Source of the DNA: a virus
Lineage: Duplodnaviria; Caudoviricetes
Direction: 5' to 3' (one strand)
IMG/VR virus record: IMGVR_UViG_2599185230_000001
Span: 44,395 to 108,394 of that record
DNA length: 64,000 nt
Shown here: in pieces, positions 20,212 to 63,842 of the stretch
Layout of the letters: each line of letters opens with the position of its first letter
How positions within the stretch are numbered: the first letter of the stretch is position 1
Notes under the pieces: model-generated
Told to the model about the DNA's origin: nothing
Database searches by the model: none
What the model saw: only the letters and a program-made list of their open reading frames with translations
Position numbers and translations under genes: made by a program

Positions 20212-20747
20212 GGCGTTCCCCTCCTTTGTAAAAATTCCAACATCTGTTCCGCCTGGATCTCCAGTTCTTCCACGGAGCCTTCGTTCCACAACTCAAAGTC
20301 CGTTACGAAAGTGTTAATATGCCTTTCGGTTTCGTGGTCAAGGTCGGCGGGTTCGAATTCGTCACCGACGGCCCGCATGCGTTCCAGGCGGGTGGCGTGA
20401 GAGGCGTTTACCCGTACAATGGAAAAACCCTTATTACGTAAGGCTCTGTATTCGTTGGGCTGTCTCATGTCCGTAATAATGACACTTTTATTCCGGGCCG
20501 CTTCTATTTCATTGAAAGTGTATTTAATCCATACTTCAGGGTCATACTTGCGTAAGTCTTGGCCTAAGCCCTGGTAAAGCTTTCTGGGCTTACGGCCCTG
20601 GGTCAGCATGCCGGGAAAGGCTAGGGCACATACTTTGCGTATTCCGTCGGCAAAGGCAAAGCTTTGAAAGTTATGAATGTCGGCTAAATATTGGGCCACC
20701 GTGTCCTTGCCGCTTCTCATTCTTCCGGTCAGGGCAATTTTTAATAC
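20199..20747 (-). CDS. Deoxynucleoside monophosphate kinase-like P-loop protein
   Basis: KIALTGRMRSGKDT (frame open upstream of ATG 20720), FADGIR, DMRQPNE, HETE. Confidence 0.8.
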   Translation of the reverse strand, partial: VLKIALTGRMRSGKDTVAQYLADIHNFQSFAFADGIRKVCALAFPGMLTQGRKPRKLYQGLGQDLRKYDPEVWIKYTFNEIEAARNKSVIITDMRQPNEYRALRNKGFSIVRVNASHATRLERMRAVGDEFEPADLDHETERHINTFVTDFELWNEGSVEELEIQAEQMLEFLQRRGTPWVA

Positions 20748-20762
20748 GTCAATCCCTTCTAT

Positions 20763-20993
20763 TTAAACCTCCCGCCCTTCTTCGACAGCCAGCCACTGTT
20801 CAAGCTGTTTAATTCGTTTGATTAGGTGTTCATAATAAGCCCGTTCAATAATGTCCAGCCGTTCCAGAATGTTTTGCATGGAAAGGGGCTTTTCAGGGTC
20901 GGCCAGTTCAATAATATCCGCCTCGAATTCTTCCAACTCGGTTTTCAGGTCAGCCAGTAATTCTTTGTAGCTTATTACGTTGTCATTTCTCAA
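20763..20993 (-). CDS. Hypothetical protein
   Basis: Acidic helical ORF; GGAG RBS before TTG at 20993. Confidence 0.55.
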   Translation of the reverse strand: MRNDNVISYKELLADLKTELEEFEADIIELADPEKPLSMQNILERLDIIERAYYEHLIKRIKQLEQWLAVEEGREV

Positions 20994-21495
20994 CTGTCGT
21001 TCTCCCTTCAAATTTAAGCCACTTAAATTCTTGGGCCTGAATTTCATAACACATTTTCCCGCCCCACAGCAGAAAGGCTACGGGTTTTCTAGTTTTGCGT
21101 ATTCGTTCCAGGTCAACGGTCTTTAAGACGGTAAACACCGGGCTATCCGTTTCGTAGCCGTTCACCCAGATAACGGAGGCCCTTTGTTTTAAATAACTTT
21201 CTAACTGGTCAACTTTAAAATGAAATCTTAAAAGCCTTTTGTTATTAAATTTTACTTCCACGGGTTGCCCGTTTAGCTTAAAGTCCGCCAGGGTGTTCAC
21301 TTCGCCCCGCTCCAACAGCTTGCCGGAGTTATCGCAGCCGTTGTCTTCAACCTCTAAAGCTATCTTGTATTTCATTTCGTAATAACGGACGTACCAGCTA
21401 ATAATTTCCCGTTCAACTCTGGTTCCCTGGGCTATGTCTTCGGCAAACTGCTCCACGGTGCGGTTGTCCATTCGATAACGGTCAAAGGCGTACAT
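20983..21495 (-). CDS. PD-(D/E)XK-like hypothetical protein
   Basis: E...ADF...VEVK motif. Confidence 0.55.
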   Translation of the reverse strand: MYAFDRYRMDNRTVEQFAEDIAQGTRVEREIISWYVRYYEMKYKIALEVEDNGCDNSGKLLERGEVNTLADFKLNGQPVEVKFNNKRLLRFHFKVDQLESYLKQRASVIWVNGYETDSPVFTVLKTVDLERIRKTRKPVAFLLWGGKMCYEIQAQEFKWLKFEGRTTVEK

Positions 21496-21522
21496 GGTGT
21501 CACTGTTTCCCCCTTTTCGCTA

Positions 21523-21553
21523 GCTATCTACCGGAAAAGGAAGGATTTGTGAC
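21523..21553 (-). promoter_or_regulatory. Phage-specific promoter motif, copy 1 of 5
   Basis: gctatctaccggaaaa-N9-tgtgac on the plus strand. Confidence 0.75.
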
Positions 21554-21581
21554 ACTTTTAAATTCTCTTATCAATACCCCT

Positions 21582-21616
21582 TGTACTTGATTACGTACTT
21601 TGAAACGTGCTATAAT
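21582..21616 (+). promoter_or_regulatory. SigA-type promoter overlapped by an 18-bp operator
   Basis: TTGATT (21587) ... TGcTATAAT (21608-21616); operator tgtacttgattacgtact at 21582-21599. Confidence 0.65.
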
Positions 21617-21644
21617 ACTTACACTAGAAGGGAGGTCGCACACA

Positions 21645-21866
21645 TTGGCCTTAACGATACGTATTAAATTGAAGGAAGTTTTGGAAAAAAGGGGGTTAAC
21701 CCAGACGCAATTGGCTGAAATATCCGGTGTTCGCCGCCCCTCCATTTCCGAATTGGCCACAGGTGCCCGCACGACAATAAACAAACAACACTTGATTAAA
21801 ATAATGGAAGCTTTAAATATAACAGATATTACAGAAATAATAGAAGTCGTTGAAACGAAAGGCTAG
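21645..21866 (+). CDS. XRE/Cro HTH regulator on the opposite strand to the prophage
   Basis: LTQTQLAEISGVRRPSISELATG; GGGAGG RBS before TTG at 21645. Confidence 0.88.
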   Translation: MALTIRIKLKEVLEKRGLTQTQLAEISGVRRPSISELATGARTTINKQHLIKIMEALNITDITEIIEVVETKG

Positions 21867-22507
21867 GCGGCCTTTTGGGAGTGTTTGCCGCAACGCCCGT
21901 GGCTTTCCGGGCAGTACCCCCGCTCGTCGCCCCTGCAGCCCAACCCGCTAAATATAACGGGCATTTGGTCTTTTAGGATCTCAGCCATCTCATAGGCCAG
22001 CCCTCTTATTTCCCATTCCGCCCGTAAACAAAGGCGAAGCTGTAAAAACTCGTAAAGTCCCTGGAAATTACCGCTTATTATTAAATCAGTGGTGGCACCA
22101 AGGGGTAGCAGCATCTTTGAAATTTCCCTGCTGTGTTCGGTGCTGTAACCCCTTTTGTCTTTGTTCCAGCGTTCGTAGATGGCGGCCAGTGTGTTCAAGT
22201 CCTTGCTGTAATCCAGCCGGTCTTCAGGCTTTACATAAGGAGGCACGATGTATAAGGTGTCTTCGAAACTGCAATACCGGCTTGATTTCACGGTTAGATT
22301 AATATGTGGGTGTCTTGACAATTGCCTTAAAAGGCTTTGGCTTACCCCTTCCACCAGAAAGGACGCCATGCCGTGACGGGCGATACTGCGGTGGCCGCTG
22401 TCCCATACCCGCCCTATAAGTTCTTCACTTTCAGGGCTTTGGTAGGGCATGGCCGCCGCTTTTTTAATAACGTCAAGGGGTGTGCAGTCTATTAATGACA
22501 CTTTCAA
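21863..22507 (-). CDS. thyX: FAD-dependent thymidylate synthase
   Basis: GHRSIARH, RQLSRH, SSRY, LRLCLRAEWEIR. Confidence 0.9.
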   Translation of the reverse strand: MKVSLIDCTPLDVIKKAAAMPYQSPESEELIGRVWDSGHRSIARHGMASFLVEGVSQSLLRQLSRHPHINLTVKSSRYCSFEDTLYIVPPYVKPEDRLDYSKDLNTLAAIYERWNKDKRGYSTEHSREISKMLLPLGATTDLIISGNFQGLYEFLQLRLCLRAEWEIRGLAYEMAEILKDQMPVIFSGLGCRGDERGYCPESHGRCGKHSQKAA

Positions 22508-22668: not shown

Positions 22669-23154
22669 TTACGCCACCCCCTTTCCCGTACTCCCAAAGC
22701 CGCCACCACCACGTTCGCTTTCATCTATAAATGACACTTCCATTAATTCGGTTTCATGGTGGACAGGGGCGAATACAAGCTGGGCTATTCTGTCTCCCGC
22801 TCTAATGCTATATTGCTTTTGGCCGTGGTTAATTAGAATTACACCCACGTCCCCAGTGTAATCAGCGTCAACGGTGCCGGGGCTGTTCAAAACGGTTATG
22901 CCGTGTTTAAGAGCCAGTCCGCTTCTCGGCCTTACCTGGGCTTCCATACCTTTGGTCACCTGAACGGCCAACCCCGTTCTAACAAGGGCTATTTGACCAG
23001 GCCACATAATAAATAACGGTGCTTCAACGTCATAGGGCTTCTTTTCCCCAGGCCGTATAACGTCCAGTGCGTGCAGGTCGAAGCCGCTTGCCAGGGCTGT
23101 TTGCCGCCGGGGAATAATCGCGTTTTCATGCAACTTCTTAACGATTACATTCAC
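22669..23154 (-). CDS. dut: Trimeric dUTPase
   Basis: SGFDL, RPRSGLA, GTVDADYTG, RIAQLV, RGGGGFGSTG. Confidence 0.95.
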   Translation of the reverse strand: MNVIVKKLHENAIIPRRQTALASGFDLHALDVIRPGEKKPYDVEAPLFIMWPGQIALVRTGLAVQVTKGMEAQVRPRSGLALKHGITVLNSPGTVDADYTGDVGVILINHGQKQYSIRAGDRIAQLVFAPVHHETELMEVSFIDESERGGGGFGSTGKGVA

Positions 23155-23231
23155 GGCGTATCCCCTCCCCCTGGTAATGACACTTTAATTATGAGTTTTA
23201 GCATTTACCTTGCCTCCTTTCTTCTTCGTAA

Positions 23232-26016: not shown

Positions 26017-26352
26017 TTAAGAAGCCCCCTTTTCTTTTATGTCCTGGCCCGTTATGGCCCATTTTTTAAATCCTTGCCTGTCTACCCATACCCATAATTC
26101 GAAGTCTACATTGTCCAGACCGTATTCAAAAATGACACTTTGAATGGCGGTCACTTCCTTTTTATAGCCGGAGAAAGAAAGTTTTTTGGTGCGTTTGCTT
26201 TGTACCGCAATAATGCGGTCACGGCGTAGGCCCAGCACGTCAATTTTGCTGTGGCTGCCAGCGGAACGAAGGACTAAAAAGCCTTGTTCCGCCAGTTGCT
26301 CCATAATCTTTCTTTCTACCTCGTAACCCCTCTGGTAATTAGTTCGGGCCAT
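26017..26352 (-). CDS. Hjc-type Holliday junction resolvase
   Basis: GYEVER...GFLVLRSAGS..IDV...AVQSK. Confidence 0.8.
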   Translation of the reverse strand: MARTNYQRGYEVERKIMEQLAEQGFLVLRSAGSHSKIDVLGLRRDRIIAVQSKRTKKLSFSGYKKEVTAIQSVIFEYGLDNVDFELWVWVDRQGFKKWAITGQDIKEKGAS

Positions 26353-27257
26353 TACGAGGCCATCTCTTCGCACTGGGTTTTATAAGTGCAAAAAATACAC
26401 TTGTCAAATTCAGCGGGGAGGATTTCGCCGTTATATCGAGCTTCCGCCACTTCTGCATATTTGTCCAACAGGGCTTCCCGTTGGTTGTCCGACACCTCTA
26501 CGCAAAAGGCCCGGAGGTCGGGTTTGGCGTTTTCGTTTTTTGTCCAGCTGTCTTTGGCCAGGCTTTCGTAGACGATTAAAAACTCACGCAGGTTAAAAAT
26601 CAGGGAATAAGCTATGCACTGTTGTTTATGGCTTTCTTGGGCGTCCCTCATTTTGTAATCACCTATGCTTGATATGGTGGTGGATTTCGTTTTGAATTCC
26701 AAGCCCAGCTTTGTGGCGTCGGGAGTGTATTTAAGCACGCCGTCCATCATGCCGTATATTTGGAAACGGACGCCCCGGTGTTCAAACTGTTTTACCTGCC
26801 TGATGTTCTTTTCCCAGGCCGGGCGGCCAGCCTTTGTTCTTACCACTTCAAAATTTGGTTTTTCTAAGTATTTTTCTGCATAAAGCAAGTCTTTTTGGGT
26901 TGCGGCATGTACAGCACTTCCGTTTCGCATTTGCCGCCGTTGGAACGGGTAAAAGGTTTTCGGGTCGCCTTGCAGCTGGCACGCCTTGTAAAACAGTTCC
27001 CGTTTACATTTAGAGGCCCCTGATGGGGAGAAGGTCACAAGGCCGTTTGTGAATTTTAAGTGGGAAGTGTCATTTTCCAGGGCCAATCTTTCATCCTCCA
27101 ACAATAGCCGTTCAATTTCCATATCAACGGGCGGGTTGATACTGTGAATGTCGTTTAAATGCCTGACTATATCCCTGGCCAAAACATCGCACCGTTCAGC
27201 GTTTTGTATCTGTTCACGAAGAAGGGCGGCCCCTTCTCGGTTGGTTAAGCGGCCCAT
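26352..27257 (-). CDS. Cas4/RecB-like PD-(D/E)XK exonuclease
   Basis: FSPSGASKCKR, GMMDG, LEFKT, QCIAY, C-terminal CIFCTYKTQC. Confidence 0.8.
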   Translation of the reverse strand: MGRLTNREGAALLREQIQNAERCDVLARDIVRHLNDIHSINPPVDMEIERLLLEDERLALENDTSHLKFTNGLVTFSPSGASKCKRELFYKACQLQGDPKTFYPFQRRQMRNGSAVHAATQKDLLYAEKYLEKPNFEVVRTKAGRPAWEKNIRQVKQFEHRGVRFQIYGMMDGVLKYTPDATKLGLEFKTKSTTISSIGDYKMRDAQESHKQQCIAYSLIFNLREFLIVYESLAKDSWTKNENAKPDLRAFCVEVSDNQREALLDKYAEVAEARYNGEILPAEFDKCIFCTYKTQCEEMAS

Positions 27258-29512
27258 TTGTATTCCTCCTTTTTAATGCCGTCGCCCCAGCGGGTCATTA
27301 CTTCGGTGTCCACTTTGACGGGCACGGTTAATTTCGTGGCCTGGATCATGCAGGCTTCCAGCTCGTTCACTTCGGCCAGTGTTACGGTGTTATCCACTAA
27401 CAGCAGGGCTTCGTCGTGAACAGTGCCGTTGATGGCCCAGCCTTTGGCTTTACAATAGGTGTACAGGTTCAGCAAGGCTCGCTTCATAATGTCGGCGGCG
27501 GTTCCTTGAATTCGTGCGTTTACAGCCATGCGGCGAACACGTTCCACATCGCCTTTAACGGCTATAAAGCTGTGTTTTAAATCCCTGGGAATGTCTTTTC
27601 TTGTCCAATAGTCCAGTGGTACAGTTGCAGTCCCGGTAATGGCACATATTTGGGCGACCAGCTTATCGTAAATAACGGCCTGCTCACGGTGGCCGGGGAA
27701 GCGGCGTTTTCGCCCGTAAAGTGTCGTAACGTATTCCCGTTCTTTTACTTCCTGCCAGGTCGCTTTAATGAATTCGTACACCTGCGGGTATTCACGGTAA
27801 AAATCTTCAATGAATTGGTGGGCTTCTTCCACGGTAATGCCCAGTTGTTCGGCCAGTGTCCACATGGAAGTCCCGTACATTACCGCCAAAAGGCCCACTT
27901 TCATAGCCTTTCTGTATTTTGTGCCGTCACCACATTCGGCCAGCGGCACTTTAAACACACGGGCCGCCAGGGTGCTGTAAAGGTCTTCCCCGTTTAAATA
28001 AGGTTCCATGAAGTGAGGGTCGCCGCTCATGTGTGCCAGTACACGCGGTTCGATTTGGGAAAAGTCAATGCCCAGAATTAACTTGCCGTCGGGGGCTATG
28101 ATTAGCCGTCTTGCCCTGGGCGGAAGGTTTTGGAGGTTGGGTTCACGGCTTGCGAAACGTCCTGTAACGGTCGCTACTTGATTAAAGGTGCCGTGCAGTA
28201 AGCCGTCCGCCTGTACGATATTGGGCAGAGCCTCAACGTAGGTGCCCAGTAATTTGGTGTATTCACGGTATTTCAGTAGGACTTCAATACCTGGATGCTC
28301 GTTTTTAAGAGCTTTAAGTGTCTTTACATCGGTGCTTCTATCTTTGCCCCGCTTCTTGCTGGGGGGCAGGCCCAGTTTGTCGTATAACACTTCGGCCAGC
28401 TGCACGGGAGAATTGAAGTTAATTTCCCCGAAGTGTCGTTTTAACTGATAGCCCAGGTCTTCAATTTCTGCCTTTAGTTCCGGGCCGTATTCTTGGGCAA
28501 AGTCCTGGTCAATTAGAAAGCCCGTTTGTTCCATATCAACGCAGACTTCTACCAGGGGGTTTTCTATTTCGTCATAAAGCTTTTCAAGGTCAGAAAGTTT
28601 GGCAAGGTGTTTTTTCTGCCAATTGTAAAGTTCCCAGGTTAAATGCGTGTCTTTGGCCGCGTATACCAGGGCCACGTCCAGAGGCACTTCATCAAAGGTT
28701 TGGCCTTTGAACAAGTCTTCGAAAGTGTCACTATCACCGTCGAAGCCAAAATATTTTCCGTATTTGGTGGCCAGTTTTTTCAATGCGTTGCTGGGTTCGT
28801 TTTCGTTTAAAATGGCCATGGCCACCATTGTGTCATGGGCCAGACCCTGTAGGCGTACCCCGTAGCGTATCAGCATATGAATGTCAAATTTGGCGTTATG
28901 CAGCACTTTGCCCAGGGCTGGGTTCGTGAGGTGCCTCTTAAGACGGTTTAGCACGTAATTTGTGCGAAGCTGGGGGCCAGCCTCCATATGCTTTACGGGA
29001 ATATACACGTGGTAATCAGCCTGGGGCAGGGTCAACGACAGGCCCACCAGTTCGTCTTTGTAGACATTAACGCCCGTGGTTTCAGTATCCAGGGCTACAA
29101 TAGTTTCAAGGTCAAGGTCGTTGATTAATTGGTCAAGCTGTTCTTCCGTCCTGATTAAGTGATAATTGTCAGGCTTGGCGGTCAATAGCCTTTTTATTTT
29201 GTCGTCCCGCTGCAGCCGTTCCAGTTCCCTGTATTTAGCTTCAATTAAAACGCCGCTTATTTTTTCCGGTGGGGTTTCCATGCTAATGGTGCCAGCCTCA
29301 CAGGCCGCCTTTACCTGTATAGCCCGTTCCCTTTTGGCTGCGTTGTTTTTAAACTGGGCTTGGCCGAATAACTGTGCCCAGCGGCCATCCCAGTCGGTGG
29401 CTTTTTGCCGGGCTTTCTTTTTGGTCTTGGCATCTTGCACACGGGCGGCGGCCTCCTTTTCCTTGAAAGCCGCCTTTTCCAATGCTTGGGTCATGTCCAG
29501 ATTTAATACCAT
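27245..29512 (-). CDS. Family A DNA polymerase with 3'-5' exonuclease
   Basis: DTETTG, HNAKFD, YAAKD; DFSQIEPR, KVGLLAVMYG, TVHDE. Confidence 0.95.
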   Translation of the reverse strand: MVLNLDMTQALEKAAFKEKEAAARVQDAKTKKKARQKATDWDGRWAQLFGQAQFKNNAAKRERAIQVKAACEAGTISMETPPEKISGVLIEAKYRELERLQRDDKIKRLLTAKPDNYHLIRTEEQLDQLINDLDLETIVALDTETTGVNVYKDELVGLSLTLPQADYHVYIPVKHMEAGPQLRTNYVLNRLKRHLTNPALGKVLHNAKFDIHMLIRYGVRLQGLAHDTMVAMAILNENEPSNALKKLATKYGKYFGFDGDSDTFEDLFKGQTFDEVPLDVALVYAAKDTHLTWELYNWQKKHLAKLSDLEKLYDEIENPLVEVCVDMEQTGFLIDQDFAQEYGPELKAEIEDLGYQLKRHFGEINFNSPVQLAEVLYDKLGLPPSKKRGKDRSTDVKTLKALKNEHPGIEVLLKYREYTKLLGTYVEALPNIVQADGLLHGTFNQVATVTGRFASREPNLQNLPPRARRLIIAPDGKLILGIDFSQIEPRVLAHMSGDPHFMEPYLNGEDLYSTLAARVFKVPLAECGDGTKYRKAMKVGLLAVMYGTSMWTLAEQLGITVEEAHQFIEDFYREYPQVYEFIKATWQEVKEREYVTTLYGRKRRFPGHREQAVIYDKLVAQICAITGTATVPLDYWTRKDIPRDLKHSFIAVKGDVERVRRMAVNARIQGTAADIMKRALLNLYTYCKAKGWAINGTVHDEALLLVDNTVTLAEVNELEACMIQATKLTVPVKVDTEVMTRWGDGIKKEEYKWAA

Positions 29513-29523: not shown

Positions 29524-29913
29524 CTATGCTATTTTCTTATATTCCCAGCTAGGCAGGGCTTTAGGATCTTTCACGTCGTTCACATAGTCGTCCAGCCGAA
29601 GCCGAATCACATTTCCATTCAGGTCTTCAACGGGAATGAAATAGAAAGTGTCATTTTGGGGGTCGGAAATGGCCACCACATCAATTTCTTCTTTGCTGTA
29701 GGGCCGGTTTGATTTGGCCACAATGGAACGGTTTTGATTTTCCACACTTCCGGTCTTTACTTGCACCCGTAGGACATGGGGCCATTTTACGGCAATAAAG
29801 TCGCAGCGTTCCACCGTTGTGGGATAGTACGTTGACCAGCCTTCTTTTAAAAATTCCAGTTCCGCTGCACGTTCGGTAATTACGCCAATGTGGTAAGTGT
29901 CACGCACAGCCAT
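29524..29913 (-). CDS. Group I intron-associated type PD-(D/E)XK endonuclease, free-standing
   Basis: G.ITE, CDFIA, RVQVKT, YSKEEIDV, FYFIPV. Confidence 0.75.
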   Translation of the reverse strand: MAVRDTYHIGVITERAAELEFLKEGWSTYYPTTVERCDFIAVKWPHVLRVQVKTGSVENQNRSIVAKSNRPYSKEEIDVVAISDPQNDTFYFIPVEDLNGNVIRLRLDDYVNDVKDPKALPSWEYKKIA

Positions 29914-34948: not shown

Positions 34949-34962
34949 CAGGCCCCCACCTT

Positions 34963-48807: not shown

Positions 48808-48808
48808 T

Positions 48809-52043: not shown

Positions 52044-52124
52044 TTTTAATAAGTACCCCCAAAAGGTTTTTTAGAAGTGTCATTTTTTCCGGTCAGTTGT
52101 CTATCTAATTAAAAGTGTCATTTT

Positions 52125-53403: not shown

Positions 53404-53721
53404 TTATACCGCCACCTTTGTAAATAGTGGCTTTCCGGTAAAGTCCCGAACGATAGCCACGGTTAATGGGTGAAGGCTGTATTGGTTGCCCGTTTCGTCT
53501 TTCCACTCTAATAGGTCGCTGTAGTTCACCGTTACAAGCCCGTTTAATAAAATGGTTGCACTTGTGACGGCTTCTTTGCCGTCTTGGGTTTTCACTAGTT
53601 GGCTGTGTTGGTCTATCCGACATTTAAGTGTCATTCCACGGCCTGGGCGGGGTTGGCCCCACTCATCCAGATCACCGCCTTTGGTGATTTTGACACTTTG
53701 ATTTAGAGGTATGAGGGCCAT
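53404..53721 (-). CDS. Head closure protein
   Basis: DEWGQP, CRID, position in the neck module. Confidence 0.7.
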   Translation of the reverse strand: MALIPLNQSVKITKGGDLDEWGQPRPGRGMTLKCRIDQHSQLVKTQDGKEAVTSATILLNGLVTVNYSDLLEWKDETGNQYSLHPLTVAIVRDFTGKPLFTKVAV

Positions 53722-57144: not shown

Positions 57145-58038
57145 TTACTGATCTAATTCAGTCATTTTTCTGTTGTGTTTATCTTTAAGGGCGGTGGGCA
57201 ACAGGTCAAAGTCCCTTAATGCGTGCACGGTGTGTTGACAATTCGGGTGAAATATTTTGCCGCTGTCCCTTAACTCGTTATAGGTTAAATAACTTGGGGT
57301 CAGGCCGTTCATGGAAATTACCATACCTTCATAACTCCGGCAAGCGTCTTTGGCCCCGTGGGATGATACCACAGCTAGGTCGAGGCCCCTTTCGGTAAGT
57401 TCCTCCCGTCGGCCTTCTACGTGGGCTTGCTGTAGCTTTGTTCTTACCACCATTTCCGCGTAAGTCGAAAGGTTCCAGCGGCGGCCCGCCTTGTCAACTA
57501 TACCTACCCAGGCTTCGCTTTCCAGCTTCTTGGAAAGGCCCGCTTTGGTCAGTTTGTCTATAATTTCGTTGCGGGTGGTACGGCGGCCCAGCTGCTCAAT
57601 TGCTTTCACCCTTAAAGTGTCCCCGACGACACTTCTTACAAGCTGTTTAACTTTTCTTTCTGTATTTTGGGTAGCCATTAAAAGGTCGTTGTAAGTGTCA
57701 TTGACGAGTGCCTCTACTTGTTGGCGGGCCAACAGGGAGAAAGACACCCCTGCTACCGCTTCCGCCAGTGTGCGGGCTTCCCCCAGTTCAACCAGGGCCG
57801 TCGCTTGGCCGTCACGGTAAGCATGGGCCACCACATCATCAGCCCATTGCCGGGTGTTGCCGTCCAGTTCTCGTAGTATAAATGCTATTTGATTAAGCAA
57901 AGAAACGGCTTGTGCCGCCTCAATGCCGTTGGTTATGCTTCCTAGCTGGTAAACTATTTTTTTAAAAGCGTCTTTGTAATACTTCACCAGTCGCCTTTCG
58001 TCCCGTTCGTAACTGGGCTGAGGAATAAAGCGTGGCAT
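57145..58038 (-). CDS. Minor capsid (head morphogenesis) protein
   Basis: DKAGRRWNLSTYAEMVVRT, SSHGA..C, FHPNCQH. Confidence 0.85.
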   Translation of the reverse strand: MPRFIPQPSYERDERRLVKYYKDAFKKIVYQLGSITNGIEAAQAVSLLNQIAFILRELDGNTRQWADDVVAHAYRDGQATALVELGEARTLAEAVAGVSFSLLARQQVEALVNDTYNDLLMATQNTERKVKQLVRSVVGDTLRVKAIEQLGRRTTRNEIIDKLTKAGLSKKLESEAWVGIVDKAGRRWNLSTYAEMVVRTKLQQAHVEGRREELTERGLDLAVVSSHGAKDACRSYEGMVISMNGLTPSYLTYNELRDSGKIFHPNCQHTVHALRDFDLLPTALKDKHNRKMTELDQ

Positions 58039-59567
58039 TATTCACCACCCGCCTGTTTAAAAGTGTCATTATTAAATATTGACGGGTCGGCCACGGCTTC
58101 CTCGGCCCTTATGCGTTCCAGTTCCTTTTCTGCTTGTTCTTCGGTTAGGCTGTCCAGCCACATAACGGCGGACTTCTGGGAAATGGTAGCTTTACCGCCT
58201 GTTCTAATTGCCATAATGTTGGCCATTTCGGTTTCGTCATCCGGCAAGCCGTCCCTAAACTTAATCAGCGGGGTAAAAAGCTGGTAATTCTGTTTACCGC
58301 CCCGTGCGTGTTCCAGCATTTGAGCAATGGTTAAGACGCGTTTCAATCCCTTATTGTAATATTGCCGCTTCCGGTTGATTTTGGCCAGAATACTGTTCAT
58401 TCGCCATTTAATTGACAGGCCGCTGCTGCCGCTTGTGCCGCTGTCCCCTTTGCCCAGGGCCACGGCGGGAATTTCAGCGTTGATAAGTAAAATGTCTATA
58501 AGTTTTTCCAATTCCTGAAAAGCCGCCTGTAATTGGCCGTCCCATGTTATATACTGGGGCACGACGTCTTCTTTGCCCATGATTTCAAAGATTTTATTTA
58601 AGCCCACACGGAAAACGGGGTTTCCTTCTTCGTCCTCACTTAATAACCCAGCGGGAACGGCCATTGCTGGGTCTGCGTGCTTGTCCAATATGGCCGCAAT
58701 TTGCGAGAGCCTGTTATTAATTTCATCAAACAGCGGCTTGTTGTCGGAAAGGTCGTCAATGCCCTCCCAGATTTCGTCTGTGGCAAAGTTGGGAACGTGC
58801 ACCACCAAGGGAAAGGGCACGTCAGTCTCCACCAGTTTATAGGCGTCTTTGATTTCCGAATAAATACGCCATTCCGTTATCTCGTTATCATAGGTTATAG
58901 TCACAGGGTTCAAGTTGAATTTGCGGTAAATAATCCGGCCAGGGAAGTGGCTTTCCACGTTTAATATCCAATAGTCACCCTTTTTGTTGTCGCGGATCAG
59001 AAAAGGGACGGCGATATGGTAGGCCATGATTTTGTTCGCGTCCCCTGGAAAAGTTTCAGGGAATACGTATTCCGGGTTTTGGGCTTCGATTATGGCCCTG
59101 AAGGGGTCATACCTGGCGTCTACCATGCCGTCATATTCCTGGCCCCAGCGTATCTTGTAAAAGCTGTCCCCACGGTAAGCGTTACCCAGGGCACTTTCGT
59201 AATTAATAATGTCCAGGTTATTGTCCCCGTTTATTCGGTCGAGGGCTTTTTGCTCGTTGGAATTGTCGTCCTTGCCCGCTGAATAAGCCGTGGGTTCGCC
59301 GAAAAGAAAGTCCGCCGATTTTTTGCAAATAATGGCGGGCAAGTTTACTGATATATAAATAACGTCATTTTGGCGGCTAGTCAGCCGGTTCTGTACTCGT
59401 TTGAACACATCGTAATGTTGGCCCATGAATAACTTGCGGTTGTCCCTATAACGGGCAATACGTTCCTTGTGCGATGGTGGCGGGAAATACTCATTTATAG
59501 CAAACAGCGGGGTAGGCGGAAGGTAATACTGTTCCAGTTCTTCTGCATAGCCGATTACGCCCAGCAA
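58038..59567 (-). CDS. Portal protein (SPP1/A118-like)
   Basis: NLPAIICKKSADFLFGE, HVPN, GIDD, SGLSIK. Confidence 0.88.
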   Translation of the reverse strand: MLGVIGYAEELEQYYLPPTPLFAINEYFPPPSHKERIARYRDNRKLFMGQHYDVFKRVQNRLTSRQNDVIYISVNLPAIICKKSADFLFGEPTAYSAGKDDNSNEQKALDRINGDNNLDIINYESALGNAYRGDSFYKIRWGQEYDGMVDARYDPFRAIIEAQNPEYVFPETFPGDANKIMAYHIAVPFLIRDNKKGDYWILNVESHFPGRIIYRKFNLNPVTITYDNEITEWRIYSEIKDAYKLVETDVPFPLVVHVPNFATDEIWEGIDDLSDNKPLFDEINNRLSQIAAILDKHADPAMAVPAGLLSEDEEGNPVFRVGLNKIFEIMGKEDVVPQYITWDGQLQAAFQELEKLIDILLINAEIPAVALGKGDSGTSGSSGLSIKWRMNSILAKINRKRQYYNKGLKRVLTIAQMLEHARGGKQNYQLFTPLIKFRDGLPDDETEMANIMAIRTGGKATISQKSAVMWLDSLTEEQAEKELERIRAEEAVADPSIFNNDTFKQAGGE

Positions 59568-59623: not shown

Positions 59624-61336
59624 TTACAAGCCGGAGGGCTTTTTGTGGAATGTCCTCCTTTTCCCGCTTCCGCACAATTCCACAGCCATTTGCAGGGCAT
59701 CCGGCAGGTCGTCATGGTCATGGGTGGGAAATTGTTCAAGCATTTCAATCAAGAGCCGCTGGTGCCTCATCAGCCGCAGCACGCCATTTTCAAACAGTGG
59801 TTCCAGGCTTTCAATACGTTCTTCCTTTTTGGTCTTACTAGTTACGCCTTTTAGCCTGGTAGTGTATAGGGCTTCTTTTGCCAGCCGTTCACGCAGCTGG
59901 CGGAAGAAGTCAATCTGGGCCTGTACTGTTTCCACAGCAAAAACGCGGGGCCGGTACTGTGCGATTTTGTCTACTGCCGTTTCAAGGGCTATGTGTGCCG
60001 GGCATTTTTTGGCCCAGACGTCAACACAATAAATAAGGCCCGTCCTTTTATCACGGGCCACTATTACTATAGCGTTATAATCTGAACGTGAATTTTTACC
60101 GAAGGCCAAGTCCCAGGCCCCGAAGTATTCCAGGGGCAGGGGTCTTCCTTTGTCATTTTTCAGGTCGCCGTAGTCAAAATAAGTGAATGTGTCGGGCCTA
60201 AAAATTTGGTCTTCCTCGCTGATAGGGTTGTTCATAAATTCAGAGCCGAAAGCACGGCTTCCGATGTTTACTTTTTCTAAAATCAGCTTTGCGTAATCAA
60301 AACGGGCGGGCCACAGCACTTCCACGCCCTTGTCCATTTCTTCTTTGTTGGCATAATAAAAGGCCAGGGCGTCTTCCATGCGGTTCTCATTCCCCTGGTC
60401 ACGGTAAATGTTTTCAAATTCTTCCCATAGGTCTTCCCGTTCCGGCGGGTTTACTATAGCCGCATAGACTTTGCTTTGAAAGTCGGCCCGCTGCAGGATA
60501 TGGGGCAATAAACCGGACCTATGCACAATGGTTCCCATGTAAATAAAGGCCGTCCGGTCTGGGTCGCCGATGGGTATTACCACGGAATTAAACCAGTGCA
60601 GGTTTTTGTCCCGAAGTTCGGCGGTGTTGGTGTTCTTTTGGCTTTCCAGGTCGTCGCAGATTACAAGGTCAGGACGGTAAGAGCCGTTCCTTTTGCCTCG
60701 AAGCTGTTTGCCCATTGAAGCGGCTTCCACCACTACGCCGTTTTTAGTCAGAAAGGCTTCTTGGTTGTCCTTGTCGTTAAGGGACTTTTTCGGGCTTAGC
60801 AGGTCGCCGTAGTCATCCCGTAGTTTCTTGTTATATTTTAGCTGCAGGCTGACCCATTCAATAAACTTCTTAGCGGAAGTGTCAGTTTCAGAGATCACTA
60901 AAATATATTTTCTTTTACCGAAGACAATTTGGTGAATGGGGAAGGCGTTTGACAAATAAGCTGACTTGGCGTGGCCCCTGGGGGCCGCCCAACCAATACG
61001 TGCCGTTATATTAACGTTAGAAACCTCATCCAAAATGCCGCATAATTCTCCGTGAAAGGTTGGGGCCATTTCCACGTTTATTCCTGCGGGAATTAAGTTC
61101 TGTTCGTTTTCCGGGTTGCGGTTATCGCTAAAATATTCGTACATGAAATAAAGCACGGATTCTTCCGCGTGGTCAATTCTTTTTAGTTTAAGCAGTTCGG
61201 CCATGTCTGCTTTTTGTTGGGTCATTTGGTCGGGTGTTGGCCGCTTGCCCAGCTCAAGTTTTCGGTTAATAAGACGAACTTGCTGCTCCAATAACTTGAT
61301 ACGGTCACGCCGTTGGCCGGTGTTCGTGATGTCCAA
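59624..61336 (-). CDS. Terminase large subunit
   Basis: APRGHAKS, RPDLVICDDLE, WDLAFG, HDDLPDAL. Confidence 0.93.
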   Translation of the reverse strand: MDITNTGQRRDRIKLLEQQVRLINRKLELGKRPTPDQMTQQKADMAELLKLKRIDHAEESVLYFMYEYFSDNRNPENEQNLIPAGINVEMAPTFHGELCGILDEVSNVNITARIGWAAPRGHAKSAYLSNAFPIHQIVFGKRKYILVISETDTSAKKFIEWVSLQLKYNKKLRDDYGDLLSPKKSLNDKDNQEAFLTKNGVVVEAASMGKQLRGKRNGSYRPDLVICDDLESQKNTNTAELRDKNLHWFNSVVIPIGDPDRTAFIYMGTIVHRSGLLPHILQRADFQSKVYAAIVNPPEREDLWEEFENIYRDQGNENRMEDALAFYYANKEEMDKGVEVLWPARFDYAKLILEKVNIGSRAFGSEFMNNPISEEDQIFRPDTFTYFDYGDLKNDKGRPLPLEYFGAWDLAFGKNSRSDYNAIVIVARDKRTGLIYCVDVWAKKCPAHIALETAVDKIAQYRPRVFAVETVQAQIDFFRQLRERLAKEALYTTRLKGVTSKTKKEERIESLEPLFENGVLRLMRHQRLLIEMLEQFPTHDHDDLPDALQMAVELCGSGKRRTFHKKPSGL

Positions 61337-61470: not shown

Positions 61471-62130
61471 TTAGTCTTCCAGCGGGATTTTGCTGCCCCC
61501 TGGATGGGTGCAACAATCTGTCCCGTCGTTATAGATGCAACAGCCGTGGCCGTTCACGCACCACCATTCGCTGTCTACCCGTTCCCGTTCACACGCACCT
61601 TCCGTGCTTGCGTCGTCGTCTTCCCAGGTTACTGGCCAAAAGTAGGGGTCTGCCGCCATCCGTGCCGCTTGTAGCGGGGCTACGTCCAGGCCCCAGTTTT
61701 GGAAGCCTGATAGTATGGTTTCATAGTATTCCTCCCAAGGCGGGGCTTCAACGTACTGCGGCCCCATCCGGTAAACGAAGGCTGCCTTCTTTTCGCCGTA
61801 AGCGTTCACCACCTCAACTATGTAACGGTTATACAGTCGAGGGTAGCCTTCGTACCTGTCCAGGGCTTCCAGGTCTTTAATGGTTATTCTGTACAAGGCA
61901 CCAGCCACCGCCTCGCCCTGGGCGGGTTCTATGTCAGCCACCCCGTTTCCCCGCTTGTTTCCTTTGAATGTTAGGCGGTAATCATGACACTTTACAGCCT
62001 CAAGGGGCTTGGCTGACGGGCAACGCCGCTTCATTTGACTCAGGTGTAAGTTTGATCCGTAGGCGAAGTACGGAATTAAAAGGTAGCCTTTCTTGTCTAT
62101 ATGAATTTTTTTGAATGTGTTTATTTTCAT
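61471..62130 (-). CDS. Gamma-glutamylcyclotransferase (GGCT/AIG2-like) with Cys-rich tail
   Basis: YFAYGSNL...QMKRRCP, LDRYEGYP. Confidence 0.9.
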   Translation of the reverse strand: MKINTFKKIHIDKKGYLLIPYFAYGSNLHLSQMKRRCPSAKPLEAVKCHDYRLTFKGNKRGNGVADIEPAQGEAVAGALYRITIKDLEALDRYEGYPRLYNRYIVEVVNAYGEKKAAFVYRMGPQYVEAPPWEEYYETILSGFQNWGLDVAPLQAARMAADPYFWPVTWEDDDASTEGACERERVDSEWWCVNGHGCCIYNDGTDCCTHPGGSKIPLED

Positions 62131-62161
62131 GCTGCCGCCTCCCGTGATGTTTTATACTTGT

Positions 62162-62190
62162 ATTATATTACGGAATGGCGTACACATCAA
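62162..62190 (-). promoter_or_regulatory. SigA-type promoter with operator in the spacer
   Basis: TTGATG-17-TATAAT on the minus strand. Confidence 0.7.
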
Positions 62191-62231
62191 CTATAAAAAA
62201 AGCGGTAGCTTGTACTACCGCCTTTTACCGT

Positions 62232-62513
62232 TTAGTGTTGAATAATCTGTGTTATAATGCCCGCACGTTTTAATTCCTTGACGAATTCCTCGCTGTCCTG
62301 CCAATCAATTTTAACCCCTGTTTGAATTTCGGTGCGGCGGGCCAGTTCCTTCATGTACTGTTCCACGCTGTCCTCCGGTTTCCATGACGAATCACGAAGT
62401 CTATTTATAATTTCGTCCCAGTCTTCTCCCGTCAAGGTGAGCCCATCTATAAAGTGTACTGTTAGCAATGGTAACAAGCCGCCTTTCACGTCGCCCAAGT
62501 ATTCCGGCATCAT
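62232..62513 (-). CDS. Hypothetical protein
   Basis: 93 aa; AAGGGG RBS; flanked by hairpins. Confidence 0.6.
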   Translation of the reverse strand: MMPEYLGDVKGGLLPLLTVHFIDGLTLTGEDWDEIINRLRDSSWKPEDSVEQYMKELARRTEIQTGVKIDWQDSEEFVKELKRAGIITQIIQH

Positions 62514-62585
62514 ATATATTATTCCCCTTTCGTTTTATTCTAGCCGAACGGCCAGGGGTTTTCAATCCCCCTGGCCCCCGTGGTC

Positions 62586-63452
62586 TTAGGCGGCTACGCT
62601 TGCAAAGTGTTCTCTGCGTTTCATTTGGTATTTGAAGGCTTGTCCGTATTCGGTTTTTAGGCTGTCCCTTGTTACGTCTCCGAATAGGATACGGCGAAGG
62701 CGGCGTTCGTGGTCGATGGAAGTATGGGCGTCCCTGTCCCAGTCGCCTTTTGCTATTCTCATTTTGCCGCCTTTGGCCCTTTCAACCAGGGCCTGGGTGA
62801 ATACTACCCAATTAACGGCTTTCTCGGCTTCGTGAGTGCCGCCATGTTGCCTGAACTCAATGGTGTTGTGGCGGTAATAAGCCTGGAAATTTAGTTTTTT
62901 GTAACGGTTGAACATAACTCGGTTAATGTCGTTTAAGGTTTTAGCCGCCAGCAATGCTTTTAATTCCTCGGCGTTGAAACCCCTGCAATATCTGTTACCG
63001 TTTCCCCTACGGCTGGGTGGTAATATGGCGTCCATGTAATTCTCAAATTTGTAGTAGATTGCGTACAGGTTAACAAAGTTTTCTACTTGGTAGTCTGTTA
63101 CATCGTGATGGACGTGAAGGCCGCAAGTCCGGTCAACTTTGGCCCCCGCCTTGCCCAGAGCGTTCATTACGGCTTTCAATTCTTTCAGGCCCTCCCTGCC
63201 CTTCAGGATGGGGCTTACTAATTCGTGGCCACCCCGTGTTAGGCCGGTGCCCTTGTTGTTTACGGAAACGTCGTAAATTAATTTCCAATGGCGACGGGTT
63301 GTGTGGTTGTAAGTTTCGTGGTGTACGTTAATCCCCGCCTCGTTTAAGGCTGCCAGGGCTTTTGGGGCTGTGATGCCGAAAAATTCGATTTCTACGCCAA
63401 AGGTTCTTGATTCGTTGAAGGTTACTCGGTATTCCTGTTCTCTCATTGGCAT
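62586..63452 (-). CDS. Amidoligase_2 family (COOH-NH2 ligase)
   Basis: RTFGVEIEF, WKLIYDVSV, ELVSPIL, TCGLHVH, RYKKLN, TIEFRQH. Confidence 0.9.
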   Translation of the reverse strand: MPMREQEYRVTFNESRTFGVEIEFFGITAPKALAALNEAGINVHHETYNHTTRRHWKLIYDVSVNNKGTGLTRGGHELVSPILKGREGLKELKAVMNALGKAGAKVDRTCGLHVHHDVTDYQVENFVNLYAIYYKFENYMDAILPPSRRGNGNRYCRGFNAEELKALLAAKTLNDINRVMFNRYKKLNFQAYYRHNTIEFRQHGGTHEAEKAVNWVVFTQALVERAKGGKMRIAKGDWDRDAHTSIDHERRLRRILFGDVTRDSLKTEYGQAFKYQMKRREHFASVAA

Positions 63453-63509
63453 TTTGTCGTGTCCTCCTTGATGTCGCTTGATGTTGGGTTATTGCTGTCT
63501 CGCATGTGT

Positions 63510-63538
63510 AGCTTATTACGTAATCTAGTACAAGTCAA
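63510..63538 (-). promoter_or_regulatory. SigA-type promoter with operator in the spacer
   Basis: TTGACT-17-TAAGCT on the minus strand. Confidence 0.6.
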
Positions 63539-63842
63539 GGAGATTTTGACACTTTATTTTTTGCAGAATGACACTTTATCTAAAAAACAAAAAGCCCTTA
63601 AATAAGGAGCTTTATAATACAATAACCTTCATAATTCTTTGACAGACCAAGGTTGAATAATTCTTATAATACGTAACTCAACTTTCCCACTTGCAAAATA
63701 ACCTTAATCCCAACATTTAAGCGGCCTTGCTGGAAAATAAAATAGCCCTTGACAATCATTGAGAAAAAATAGAAAAGACACCAATCCTTTTGGTAAAATG
63801 GAATTGCCAAAAACCAAAATTACCAGACCAAGGAAGGTGTCC

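What the first reader, a model, noticed from the sequence alone, without database searches (positions are those of the whole stretch)
20478..63576. Prophage-wide asymmetric 10-mer AAGTGTCATT, 20 exact copies embedded in and between genes
Seen: AATGACACTT on the plus strand at 20478, 22494, 22730, 23176, 26131, 46765, 48800, 52917 and 63567; AAGTGTCATT at 27065, 29646, 34783, 37661, 38923, 45255, 52075, 52113, 53626, 57693 and 58061. A further 17 copies have the 8-9 nt core (21550, 28723, 29895, 33798, 38768, 43797, 44550, 46050, 46549, 47104, 48079, 49816, 49858, 53691, 60877, 61984, 63547). Uniform expectation for a 10-mer over 45 kb on both strands is about 0.1. I saw none in 1-18300 or in the low-GC moron. 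Orientation is mixed (9 vs 11). Sites fall in unrelated genes, so this is not a protein repeat; some overlap gene starts (thyX, dit) and some are paired in intergenic gaps (52075/52113, 63547/63567). Known: dispersed phage sites include mycobacteriophage L5 stoperators (oriented with transcription) and the SPbeta repeated element. Inference: this is a genome-wide mark for a DNA-binding protein, used for silencing, partitioning/spore entrapment, packaging or self-recognition. Candidate binders are the XRE at 32451, the sigma-r4 protein at 19843 and the sigma factor itself, since the promoter -35 box GTGTCACA shares GTGTCA.
Basis: partly seen in the sequence, partly recalled or inferred. Interest (0 to 1): 0.85.

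Follow-up and report, generated by a model that had tools for sequence, protein, structure and literature searches.

The report
Phage-private eight-letter DNA recognition word
A prophage carries the word AAGTGTCA about once per kilobase, on both strands and mostly inside its genes, and keeps it under selection, so it is probably a recognition signal for a still unidentified phage protein.

Summary

The real unit is the 8-mer AAGTGTCA. It occurs 47 times in about 50 kb of phage DNA (window 18.3-64 kb plus contig C22), against 86 in 5.17 Mb of host. That is 0.94 versus 0.017 per kb.

- It survives codon-preserving shuffles (37 observed, mean 8.4, maximum 13).
- It uses every frame without a stop, on both strands.
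- It was made partly through amino-acid changes.
- In a syntenic phage of a sister genome (G017, 77% nucleotide identity), 24 of 37 sites sit at the same positions, against a 16.6% baseline (P=8e-11).
- A more distant syntenic phage (G004) lacks it.
- One-mismatch variants are not enriched. Orientation and spacing look random.

I read it as the docking or recognition word of a phage-encoded protein that acts on the whole chromosome. It is not a promoter, a stoperator or a host signal. The reader protein and the function are not identified. Nick-associated words of tf/T5-like phages are the closest statistical match, but those sit on one strand.

The scan has noted other phage-wide words on other DNA (e1-5346960, e1-5981436), but not this one.

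The parts
20478..20487 (-). exact 10-mer, inside dNMP-kinase ORF 20199-20720, sense
   Evidence: 8-mer kept at the same place in G017
21550..21557 (-). 8-mer, intergenic, overlaps the -35 box of the phage-sigma promoter 21512-21555
   Evidence: kept in G017
22494..22503 (-). exact 10-mer over codons 2-4 of thyX (21863-22507)
   Evidence: kept in G017
22730..22739 (-). exact 10-mer inside dUTPase ORF 22669-23154, sense
   Evidence: kept in G017
23176..23185 (-). exact 10-mer, intergenic, 22 nt before the dUTPase start, next to its Shine-Dalgarno
   Evidence: kept in G017
26131..26140 (-). exact 10-mer inside Hjc-like ORF 26017-26373, sense
   Evidence: kept in G017
27065..27074 (+). exact 10-mer inside PDDEXK_1 ORF 26352-27257, antisense
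   Evidence: 8-mer kept in G017
28723..28730 (+). 8-mer inside DNA polymerase A ORF, antisense
   Evidence: G017 has one mismatch
29646..29655 (+). exact 10-mer inside PDDEXK_5 ORF 29524-29913, antisense
   Evidence: kept in G017
29895..29902 (+). 8-mer at the PDDEXK_5 start / PhoH end, antisense
   Evidence: absent in G017
33798..33805 (-). 8-mer inside Toprim primase ORF 33385-34329, sense
   Evidence: kept in G017, there as the full 10-mer
34783..34792 (+). exact 10-mer inside HIT ORF 34319-34966, antisense
   Evidence: kept in G017
37661..37670 (+). exact 10-mer inside replication-initiator ORF 37185-37997, antisense
   Evidence: kept in G017
38768..38775 (-). 8-mer inside ORF 38474-38908, sense
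   Evidence: absent in G017
38923..38932 (+). exact 10-mer, intergenic, 15 nt before the start of 38474-38908, next to its Shine-Dalgarno
   Evidence: stretch missing in G017
43797..43804 (+). 8-mer inside 1098-aa tail gene 42229-45525, antisense
   Evidence: absent in G017
44550..44557 (+). 8-mer inside 42229-45525, antisense
   Evidence: absent in G017
45255..45264 (+). exact 10-mer inside 42229-45525, antisense
   Evidence: kept in G017
46050..46057 (+). 8-mer inside Dit-headed gene 45577-48828, antisense
   Evidence: absent in G017
46549..46556 (-). 8-mer inside 45577-48828, sense
   Evidence: absent in G017
46765..46774 (-). exact 10-mer inside 45577-48828, sense
   Evidence: kept in G017
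47104..47111 (+). 8-mer inside 45577-48828, antisense
   Evidence: kept in G017
48079..48086 (+). 8-mer inside 45577-48828, antisense
   Evidence: absent in G017
48800..48809 (-). exact 10-mer at the start of the Dit-headed gene (its GTG may be the start codon)
   Evidence: absent in G017
49816..49823 (-). 8-mer inside 863-aa gene 48809-51400, sense
   Evidence: kept in G017
49858..49865 (-). 8-mer inside 48809-51400, sense
   Evidence: kept in G017
52075..52084 (+). exact 10-mer whose complement supplies the ATG of ORF 51754-52083
   Evidence: 8-mer kept in G017
52113..52122 (+). exact 10-mer, intergenic, 38 nt from the previous copy, same orientation
   Evidence: stretch missing in G017
52917..52926 (-). 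exact 10-mer near the start of tail-terminator ORF 52584-52946, sense
   Evidence: absent in G017
53626..53635 (+). exact 10-mer inside ORF 53404-53721, antisense
   Evidence: 8-mer kept in G017
53691..53698 (-). 8-mer inside ORF 53404-53721, sense, 65 nt from the previous copy on the other strand
   Evidence: kept in G017
57693..57702 (+). exact 10-mer inside ORF 57145-58038, antisense
   Evidence: kept in G017
58061..58070 (+). exact 10-mer in the 3' end of the portal gene, 23 nt before the next gene's start
   Evidence: kept in G017
60877..60884 (+). 8-mer inside large-terminase ORF, antisense
   Evidence: kept in G017
61985..61992 (-). 8-mer inside GGACT ORF 61471-62130, sense
   Evidence: kept in G017
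63547..63554 (-). 8-mer, intergenic, 8 nt upstream of the -35 (TTGACT) of the SigA-like promoter before the amidoligase gene
   Evidence: kept in G017
63567..63576 (-). exact 10-mer, intergenic, 20 nt upstream of the previous copy, same orientation
   Evidence: absent in G017

Best explanation
AAGTGTCA, in its preferred form AAGTGTCATT, is a private recognition word of this phage lineage. Selection on the DNA itself keeps it at about one copy per kilobase.

I read each copy as an independent docking or recognition site. It would act on the phage chromosome as a whole: the density of copies matters, and their position and orientation do not. I do not read the word as a promoter element, a promoter-bound operator, an RNA signal or a host signal.

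Shown here:
- the enrichment;
- the sharpness of the 8-mer;
- purifying selection at single sites, with turnover of sites;
- independence from reading frame, transcription direction and host.

Inferred, not shown:
- that a protein reads the word;
- what reading the word achieves.

My first candidate reader is the small sigma-region-4-type HTH protein (19843-20289), at odds of about 0.25. That fold reads asymmetric words as a monomer. One conserved copy of the word sits 8 nt upstream of the -35 of the promoter before the packaging and structural genes, which could be an ancestral activator site.

For the many intragenic copies, I think the most likely role is tagging phage DNA for bulk handling. 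That could mean concentrating a regulator, polymerase, replication factor or packaging factor on phage DNA, or blocking stray transcription.
For: Enrichment:
- 20 10-mers against 0.17 expected.
- AAGTGTCA 47 times in 50.0 kb (0.94 per kb), against 86 in 5.17 Mb of host (0.017 per kb; observed/expected 0.85).
- Of the 17 other genomes of the family, 16 hold 1-10 copies of the 10-mer. G017 holds 23, of which 18 are on four phage contigs.

Not a coding effect:
- In 200 codon-preserving shuffles the 8-mer count has mean 8.4 and maximum 13, against 37 observed.
- Among the 31 copies lying wholly within one of my called genes, both orientations and every frame without a stop are used.
- 48 of 92 codons under 25 sites differ in amino acid from G004, against 38% gene-wide.

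Selection:
- 24 of 37 sites are identical at orthologous positions in G017, against 16.6% of all 8-mer windows and 14% of composition-matched ones (P=7.6e-11).
- The flanks fall to the 76-77% baseline at once.
- 13 sites are ours only and 8 are G017 only, which shows turnover.
- Density is 0.38 per kb in well-conserved genes and 1.04 per kb in the others.
- There are no copies in the low-GC gene 54314-55327 or in C22 beyond 3.8 kb.

Independence from direction:
- 28 copies on + and 19 on -. The runs test gives P=0.05 for ours and 0.65 for G017. The spacing CV is 1.08 and 0.76.
- There are no hairpins.

Possible regulatory root:
- 9 of 37 copies lie within -70..+15 of a gene start, against 3.9 expected (P=0.01).
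- A conserved copy lies upstream of the -35.
Against: - No reader is identified.
- The recognition helix of the r4 protein (ISQQAVSD) is the same in G004, which does not have the dispersed word (3 8-mers in 69 kb).
- No DNA-binding gene is gained together with the word.
- The 24 one-mismatch words together number 44 in our phage, against 39 in G004, so they show no enrichment. Such all-or-none specificity is more usual for an enzyme than for a regulator.
- 31 of 37 copies lie inside genes.
- No copy lies in the immunity region 32096-32433.
- Only two word-bearing phages could be compared.
Confidence: 0.4

Rival explanations
1. Nick-associated word. A phage-encoded site-specific nickase cuts one strand at each AAGTGTCA, here on both strands. 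This would resemble the single-strand interruptions of T5, phiKMV-like and tf-like phages.
For: - The statistics match the published cases. tf has 14 copies of TACTRTGMC, and only 3 single-substitution variants were found elsewhere (PMC3517423, passages read).
- Rembedalsseter and 60 relatives carry WACTRTGAC against 0.7 expected. 88% of copies lie in coding sequence, often at gene starts (PMC11780129, passages read).
- Here the 8-mer is equally sharp (47 exact copies against 44 for all 24 neighbour words).
- 84% of copies lie in genes, with an excess near starts.
- The small PDDEXK_5 nuclease 29524-29913 is present in both word-bearing phages (81% identity) and absent from G004.
- A second PD-(D/E)XK-like protein, 20983-21495, shows a D...EVK motif. 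This is my reading of its sequence.
Against: - In all published cases the word lies on one strand only. Here the split is 28:19, with opposite-strand copies 65 nt apart.
- There are no physical data.
- As I recall, PF11645 is the family of a homing endonuclease. The gene sits like a free-standing insertion between polA and phoH, so its co-occurrence with the word (n=3 phages) may be chance.
- The phage is integrated.
Confidence: 0.22
2. Stoperator-like silencing network. The prophage repressor binds the copies and blocks transcription throughout the prophage, as L5 gp71 does.
For: - The word is asymmetric, with tens of copies at a density like that of stoperators.
- Several copies sit between a stop codon and the next Shine-Dalgarno (23176, 38923, 52075/52113, 58061).
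- The element is an integrated prophage.
Against: - Stoperators are oriented with transcription (PMC4351075 discussion). Here 18 copies are sense and 19 antisense in the window.
- Only 6 of 37 copies are intergenic.
- No copy lies at the immunity promoters.
- XRE has another operator candidate.
Confidence: 0.1
3. Priming word. The phage DnaG-type primase (33385-34329, with a degenerate zinc-finger motif) starts Okazaki primers at this word. Both strands would then need a copy every 1-2 kb.
For: - The per-strand density is 0.4-0.55 per kb.
- Both strands are used and copies are tolerated inside genes.
- The word contains GTGTC, a T7 primase template site. That is recalled, not taken from a call.
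- The left arm (6 of 6 copies on -) and the next 4 copies (all +) switch at about 26.5 kb.
Against: - The spacing is Poisson-like, with close pairs.
- Beyond 33 kb the orientation is mixed, and G017 shows no arm bias on the right.
- The switch is not at the initiator gene.
- I know of no primase that needs 8 nt (recalled).
- G004 has a 73% identical primase and no word.
Confidence: 0.08
4. Target of a base-modifying enzyme. The phage N6/N4 methyltransferase (18373-19482) or another enzyme modifies the word, and the modified word serves as the mark.
For: - The specificity is sharp and enzyme-like.
- The methyltransferase is among the best-conserved proteins between the two word-bearing phages (91%), against 70% to G004.
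Against: - Being a methylase target gives no reason for a 56-fold enrichment.
- 8-bp asymmetric methylase sites are rare (recalled).
- No methylome data are available.
Confidence: 0.07
5. Landing pads or decoys for the phage sigma factor, because the word shares TGTCA with its -35 box.
For: - The five sigma promoters read GTGTCACA-N12-CGGTAGATAGCT.
- The -35 box is kept in G017 while the -10 changes together with the sigma N-terminal half.
Against: - G004 has the same -35 box (TGTCACA at 4 promoters) but no dispersed word.
- The word needs AAG and mostly has T or A after TGTCA, whereas the -35 always has CA and has a variable 5' side.
Confidence: 0.05
6. A host-read signal: Chi, an uptake sequence, translocase polarity, or Spo0A/ParB sites for spore entrapment.
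For: The word is asymmetric and selected for density, as Chi and uptake sequences are.
Against: - The host has 86 copies in 5.17 Mb, observed/expected 0.85.
- Host copies are not preferentially non-coding (73% in open stretches, against 76% for random positions).
- The sister host G017 is likewise at background outside its phage contigs.
Confidence: 0.03

Closest known systems
Nick-associated words of tf-like (Bruynoghevirus), phiKMV-like and T5-like phages (PMC3517423, PMC11780129, PMC10644984; passages read)
   Same: - A sharp asymmetric 8-9-mer.
- More than 10-fold enrichment in the phage only.
- Mostly inside genes, in proportion to coding density, with many copies near gene starts.
- Kept across related phages.
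- Function unknown.
   Different: - The published words lie on one strand only, at 4-14 copies per genome. Here both strands are used (28:19), at 47 copies.
- No physical evidence of nicks here.
- This phage is integrated.
17-bp repeat of Cluster O mycobacteriophages (PMC4351075; passages read)
   Same: - More than 30 nearly invariant copies spread over the genome.
- Absent from the host.
- Many copies away from promoters. The authors conclude that the role is something other than control of transcription initiation.
- Reader unknown.
   Different: - The Cluster O repeat has dyad symmetry, which predicts a dimeric binder.
- About two-thirds of its copies are intergenic or at gene 5' ends.
- Here the word is asymmetric and 84% intragenic.
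Stoperators of Cluster A mycobacteriophages (L5 gp71). Described in the PMC4351075 discussion; details recalled.
   Same: - An asymmetric word.
- Tens of copies per roughly 50 kb in a temperate phage.
- The idea of one operator word that has multiplied.
   Different: - Stoperators are oriented with transcription and lie in short intergenic gaps.
- Their reader is the immunity repressor, with sites at its promoters.
- None of these three features holds here.
Chi and DNA uptake sequences (recalled)
   Same: - Short, sharp, asymmetric words.
- Kept at about one per kb by selection on density.
- Written through genes in all frames.
   Different: - Chi and uptake sequences are properties of the host chromosome, read by host machinery.
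- This word is at background in the host and is confined to the phage.

Membership tests
Cluster A stoperator network | Asymmetric site present in tens of copies over the phage genome | tested here: met
   47 copies of an asymmetric 8-mer in about 50 kb
Cluster A stoperator network | Sites oriented with the direction of transcription | tested here: not met
   Almost all genes are on the - strand, while the window holds 19 + and 18 - copies
Cluster A stoperator network | Sites lie in short intergenic gaps | tested here: not met
   6 of 37 copies are not fully inside a gene
Cluster A stoperator network | The same word serves as operator at the immunity promoters and is bound by the repressor | tested here: not met
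   No exact copy in 32096-32433, and only the sigma -35 box as a one-mismatch hit. Binding is not testable with these tools.
Nick-associated phage words (T5, phiKMV, tf) | Sharp asymmetric word strongly enriched in the phage | tested here: met
   47 exact copies against 44 for all 24 one-mismatch words together, and 56-fold over the host
Nick-associated phage words (T5, phiKMV, tf) | All copies on one strand | tested here: not met
   28 on + and 19 on - in our phage, 14 on + and 23 on - in G017
Nick-associated phage words (T5, phiKMV, tf) | Physical single-strand breaks at the word in virion DNA | not testable with these tools
   The only run holding the stretch is kept as contigs
Chi / uptake sequence / translocase polarity words | Over-represented in the host chromosome | tested here: not met
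   Host observed/expected is 0.85 for the 8-mer, and 12 against 9.0 for the 10-mer
Cluster O type phage repeat | Dyad symmetry | tested here: not met
   The word is not a palindrome, and there is no excess of local inverted repeats
Cluster O type phage repeat | Tens of invariant copies, absent from the host, mostly not at promoters | tested here: met
-35 box of the phage sigma regulon | The word is followed at fixed spacing by the -10 element | tested here: not met
   Only 5 promoters carry GTGTCACA-like plus N12 plus CGGTAGATAGCT-like. Of the 37 copies, one (21550) overlaps such a box.
Protein-coding repeat or codon bias | Enrichment disappears when synonymous codons are shuffled | tested here: not met
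   37 observed against mean 8.4 and maximum 13 in 200 shuffles

The most novel reading that the evidence does not exclude
The word is a phage-private 'self' tag, a viral counterpart of Chi or uptake sequences. In this reading, the lineage gained a sequence-specific enzyme after it split from G004-like ancestors. The enzyme could be a nickase acting on both strands, or a loader for replication, recombination or packaging. The lineage has since been writing the enzyme's 8-bp site into its own genes, at the cost of amino-acid changes. As a result, bulk DNA transactions are aimed at phage DNA and not at the hundred-fold larger host chromosome.
Probability: 0.25. Interest if true: 0.85.

Novelty: new variant of a known kind. 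Interest (0 to 1): 0.62.

Why it matters
Phage-wide short words are known, for example stoperators, the Cluster O repeats and nick-associated words. The tf and Rembedalsseter papers state that the function of phage nicks remains unexplained after 50 years.

This case is unusually clean in four ways:
- The word is a sharp 8-mer, 56 times denser than in the host.
- It shows measurable purifying selection at single sites.
- Sites have been gained recently, at the cost of protein changes.
- A syntenic outgroup lacks it.

That combination makes the question directly testable: what reads such a word, and why does its density matter? The tests are binding assays with a handful of phage proteins, native sequencing of virion DNA, and recoding.

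If a phage uses a private sequence tag to tell its own DNA from the host's, that would be a new principle in phage biology.

Tried and rejected
**Closer relatives.**
- I scanned with the polymerase A protein: viral contigs (40 loci, best 71%), genome contigs (12 loci, best 85%), metagenome contigs (39 loci, best 52%) and the phage collection (best PK2, 51.6%).
- Only G017 carries the word.
- PK2 has 5 copies against 5.0 expected.

**Pair pattern.** The pair pattern on viral contigs gave 27 loci. The ones I checked (5 records) hold local clusters, not a dispersed word.

**A variant word in G004.** AGTGGCA occurs 29 times. Against codon shuffles it reaches only z=7, among several GC-rich words of equal score. 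Most sites are not orthologous. I dropped this idea.

**Lineage-specific words in other relatives.** TTAACGAAA and similar words are nearly all on the coding strand, so I read them as codon effects.

**Other tests with negative or uninformative results.**
- Hairpins at sites: none.
- Asymmetric divergence around sites: none.
- The r4 protein against sigma region 4: no sequence similarity.
- Structure of the PDDEXK_5 protein: mean pLDDT 51, too poor to search with, so no fold search was made.
- PDB sequence searches for the nuclease, the HIT protein and the methylase gave no specificity clue.
- Homologues of the nuclease: 4 proteins in all. One, at 79% identity, lies on a 59-kb contig that I could not fetch.
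- Sequencing runs: one holder, kept as contigs and possibly the source assembly. No RNA holder listed.

**Literature.**
- The word itself gives 67 papers. The 15 listed are unrelated by title.
- General searches gave the Cluster O, tf, Rembedalsseter and BF23 papers. I read only passages of these.
- Supplementary files were not opened.

Full report
**Observation.**
The expectation is 0.17 and no shuffle exceeds 2.
- K-mer counting shows that the 8-mer is the real unit. It occurs 37 times in window 18.3-64 kb. The next unrelated 8-mer has 18 copies.
- Taking all GTGTCA hexamers, A is found at -1 and -2 in 49 and 50 of 59. Position -3 is A or G. The two following bases are mostly T or A and rarely G.

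**Extent.**
- The window is G000:C5:44395-108394 and ends at a contig end.
- Contig C22 carries 10 more 8-mers, all within 572-3821.
- Synteny with G017 and G004 places these C22 genes just beyond the window's right end.
- The left limit of the conserved phage is about 18,370, at the end of the methylase gene.
- The phage therefore holds 47 copies in about 50 kb.

**Specific to the phage.**
- The rest of the genome (5.17 Mb) has 86 8-mers, observed/expected 0.85, and 12 10-mers against 9.0 expected.
- Densities are 0.94 and 0.017 per kb.
- Host copies are not preferentially non-coding.
- Of the 17 other genomes of the family, 16 have 1-10 copies of the 10-mer. G017 has 23, of which 18 are on four contigs.

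**Not a coding effect.**
- Shuffling synonymous codons within each gene leaves intergenic copies in place. It gives a mean of 8.4 and a maximum of 13 8-mers in 200 shuffles, against 37 observed.
- With 40 shuffles the word is the lone outlier, at z=20.
- Inside genes, sense copies use all three frames (1, 5, 8). Antisense copies use the two frames without a TGA stop (4, 13).
- At 25 sites in genes with a G004 orthologue, 48 of 92 codons differ in amino acid from G004, against 38% gene-wide. Only 4 sites are fully synonymous.
- The word was therefore written in partly at the expense of the proteins.

**Selection.**
- G017 carries a syntenic phage on contigs fetched as L086, L089, L088 and L087. 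It is 76.7% identical in nucleotides.
- It has 37 8-mers. 24 of our 37 sites are identical at the aligned positions. Of all 8-mer windows 16.6% are identical, and of composition-matched ones 14% (binomial P=7.6e-11).
- Identity falls to the 76-77% baseline immediately outside the word, with no 5'/3' asymmetry.
- 13 of our sites are missing in G017 and 8 of its sites are missing here.
- G004 is an IMG/VR provirus, syntenic from the methylase to the amidoligase, with polymerase identity of 71-72%. It has only 3 8-mers in 69 kb. Our sites align to unrelated letters there.
- So the word multiplied after the split from G004-like phages, and sites are still being gained or lost.
- Copies are 2.7 times denser in genes below 70% identity to G004 than in better-conserved genes.
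- Copies are absent from the low-GC gene 54314-55327.

**Anatomy.**
- The 24 one-mismatch words together number 44 in our phage, 42 in G017 and 39 in G004. They are at background, so recognition is all-or-none.
- Orientation is 28 on + and 19 on -. The runs test gives P=0.05 for ours and 0.65 for G017. The only pattern is that the left 8 kb is all -.
- Spacing is Poisson-like, with CV 1.08 and 0.76.
- There is no local secondary structure.
- 6 of 37 copies are intergenic, where 5.9% of the sequence is intergenic. 9 of 37 lie within -70..+15 of a gene start, against 3.9 expected (P=0.01).
- Some copies abut a Shine-Dalgarno sequence or supply a start codon.
- Two copies sit in tandem upstream of a SigA-like promoter (TTGACT-17-TAAGCT) before the amidoligase gene. 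The proximal copy is kept in G017.

**Candidate readers.**
- *Sigma factor.* It drives five promoters, GTGTCACA-N12-CGGTAGATAGCT.
  - In G017 the -35 is the same and the -10 is CGTAATGAGTTA, matching a diverged sigma N-terminal half.
  - In G004 the -35 is again TGTCACA.
  - Since G004 keeps this -35 box but lacks the dispersed word, sigma is not the driver.
- *r4 HTH protein.*
  - Its Pfam hits are Sigma70_r4 and GerE, and its PHROGs name is 'sigma factor'.
  - It has the same recognition helix in all three phages.
  - Its gene is frameshifted in the G017 contig.
- *XRE helix.* It differs in G004, but a separate operator candidate accounts for XRE.
- *Initiator helix.* It differs between the two word-bearing phages.
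- *Genes found only in the two word-bearing phages*:
  - a 51-aa membrane peptide;
  - an acidic 122-aa protein;
  - a HIT protein;
  - a 129-aa PDDEXK_5 nuclease.

**Comparison with known systems.**
- Stoperators are oriented with transcription and are intergenic (PMC4351075, passages). This word is neither.
- The Cluster O 17-bp repeat is equally invariant and equally unexplained, but it is palindromic.
- Nick-associated words of tf and Rembedalsseter share several features with this word. They are sharp, enriched (13-14 copies against 0.7 expected), 88% coding, and biased to gene starts. However, they all lie on one strand.
- Chi and uptake sequences share the density-selected statistics but belong to host chromosomes.

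**Mechanism and odds.**
- I put 0.40 on docking sites of a phage-encoded monomeric binder that acts chromosome-wide. The r4 protein is the first candidate.
- The rivals are 0.22 for a nickase word on both strands, 0.10 for a stoperator-like network and 0.08 for a priming word.
- The remaining rivals are 0.07 for a modification target, 0.05 for sigma landing pads and 0.03 for a host signal.
- The sharpness of the word and the lack of any co-gained DNA-binding protein keep the enzyme readings alive.

**Limits.**
- Only two word-bearing phages exist in the collections that I could scan.
- There are no physical or expression data.
- My gene calls are greedy ORF calls, not a curated annotation.
- Statements about L5, P1, T7 primase, Chi and uptake sequences that are not tied to a call are recalled.

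Noticed in passing
window 21512-21555, 23221-23264, 32132-32175, 38240-38283, 39945-39988 (minus strand): There are five promoters of a private phage sigma factor: GTGTCACA-like, then N12, then CGGTAGATAGCT-like. In G017 the -35 is kept and the -10 becomes CGTAATGAGTTA, while the sigma N-terminal half diverges (50% identity overall). In G004 the -35 is TGTCACA and the -10 is ACGGAG-like. This looks like co-variation of the sigma region 2 with its -10 element.
   Followed up: partly
window 63515-63532, 61376-61393, 21582-21599, 62159-62176, 56371-56388, 63050-63067, 32346-32363: A pseudo-palindromic operator candidate, of the form TGTAC..N..TACGTA/GTACA, lies between or near the -35 and -10 of SigA-like promoters and near the XRE gene. 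It is probably the XRE operator. I found it only by a search allowing up to 4 mismatches to one copy.
   Followed up: partly
window 29524-29913: A free-standing 129-aa PDDEXK_5 nuclease lies between polA and phoH. It is present in G017 (81%) and absent from G004. Only 3 other homologues turned up among 5.8 billion proteins.
   Followed up: partly
window 18300-64000, G017 contigs, G004: GCCCAGG, GCCCTGG and CCCAGGGC are 2-4 times denser in all three related phages than in the host, and exceed codon shuffles at z of about 7-8.
   Followed up: partly
L070 3000-3009 and L069 1113-1122 (G004 23000 and 1113): G004 has only three 8-mers, and two of them are perfect 10-mers beside SigA-like promoters. 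One lies 36 nt upstream of the -35 before its XRE gene. The other supplies an ATG just downstream of an operator-bearing promoter. This may be a trace of an ancestral regulatory use, but the statistics are weak.
   Followed up: partly
L073 (contig C22) 484-4149, 5343-8491: The right end of the phage holds a 925-aa gene of unknown family with 8 of the word's copies in 2.8 kb, followed by two small genes. Beyond these lie a C5 cytosine methylase, a Vsr endonuclease and a tyrosine recombinase, all without copies of the word.
   Followed up: partly
window 61471-63452: Amidoligase_2 and GGACT (gamma-glutamyl cyclotransferase-like) genes lie ahead of the terminase. The nicked phage tf is also reported to carry amidoligase and glutamine amidotransferase genes (PMC3517423 passage). 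This may be a coincidence.
   Followed up: no
window 49491-49948: Four tandem 132-nt repeats (61-77% identity to the reference copy) lie inside the 863-aa gene 48809-51400, at the position usually held by a tape-measure gene.
   Followed up: no
L086 3360-3738: In the G017 contig the r4 HTH gene is split between two frames near 3592-3596. This is either a real frameshift or an assembly error of the MAG.
   Followed up: no
window 33385-34329: The Toprim primase starts with a DnaG-like zinc-finger motif (CSPFRDEWHPSF) but lacks the later cysteine pair. I read this as a degenerate zinc-binding domain. The motif comparison is recalled.
   Followed up: no
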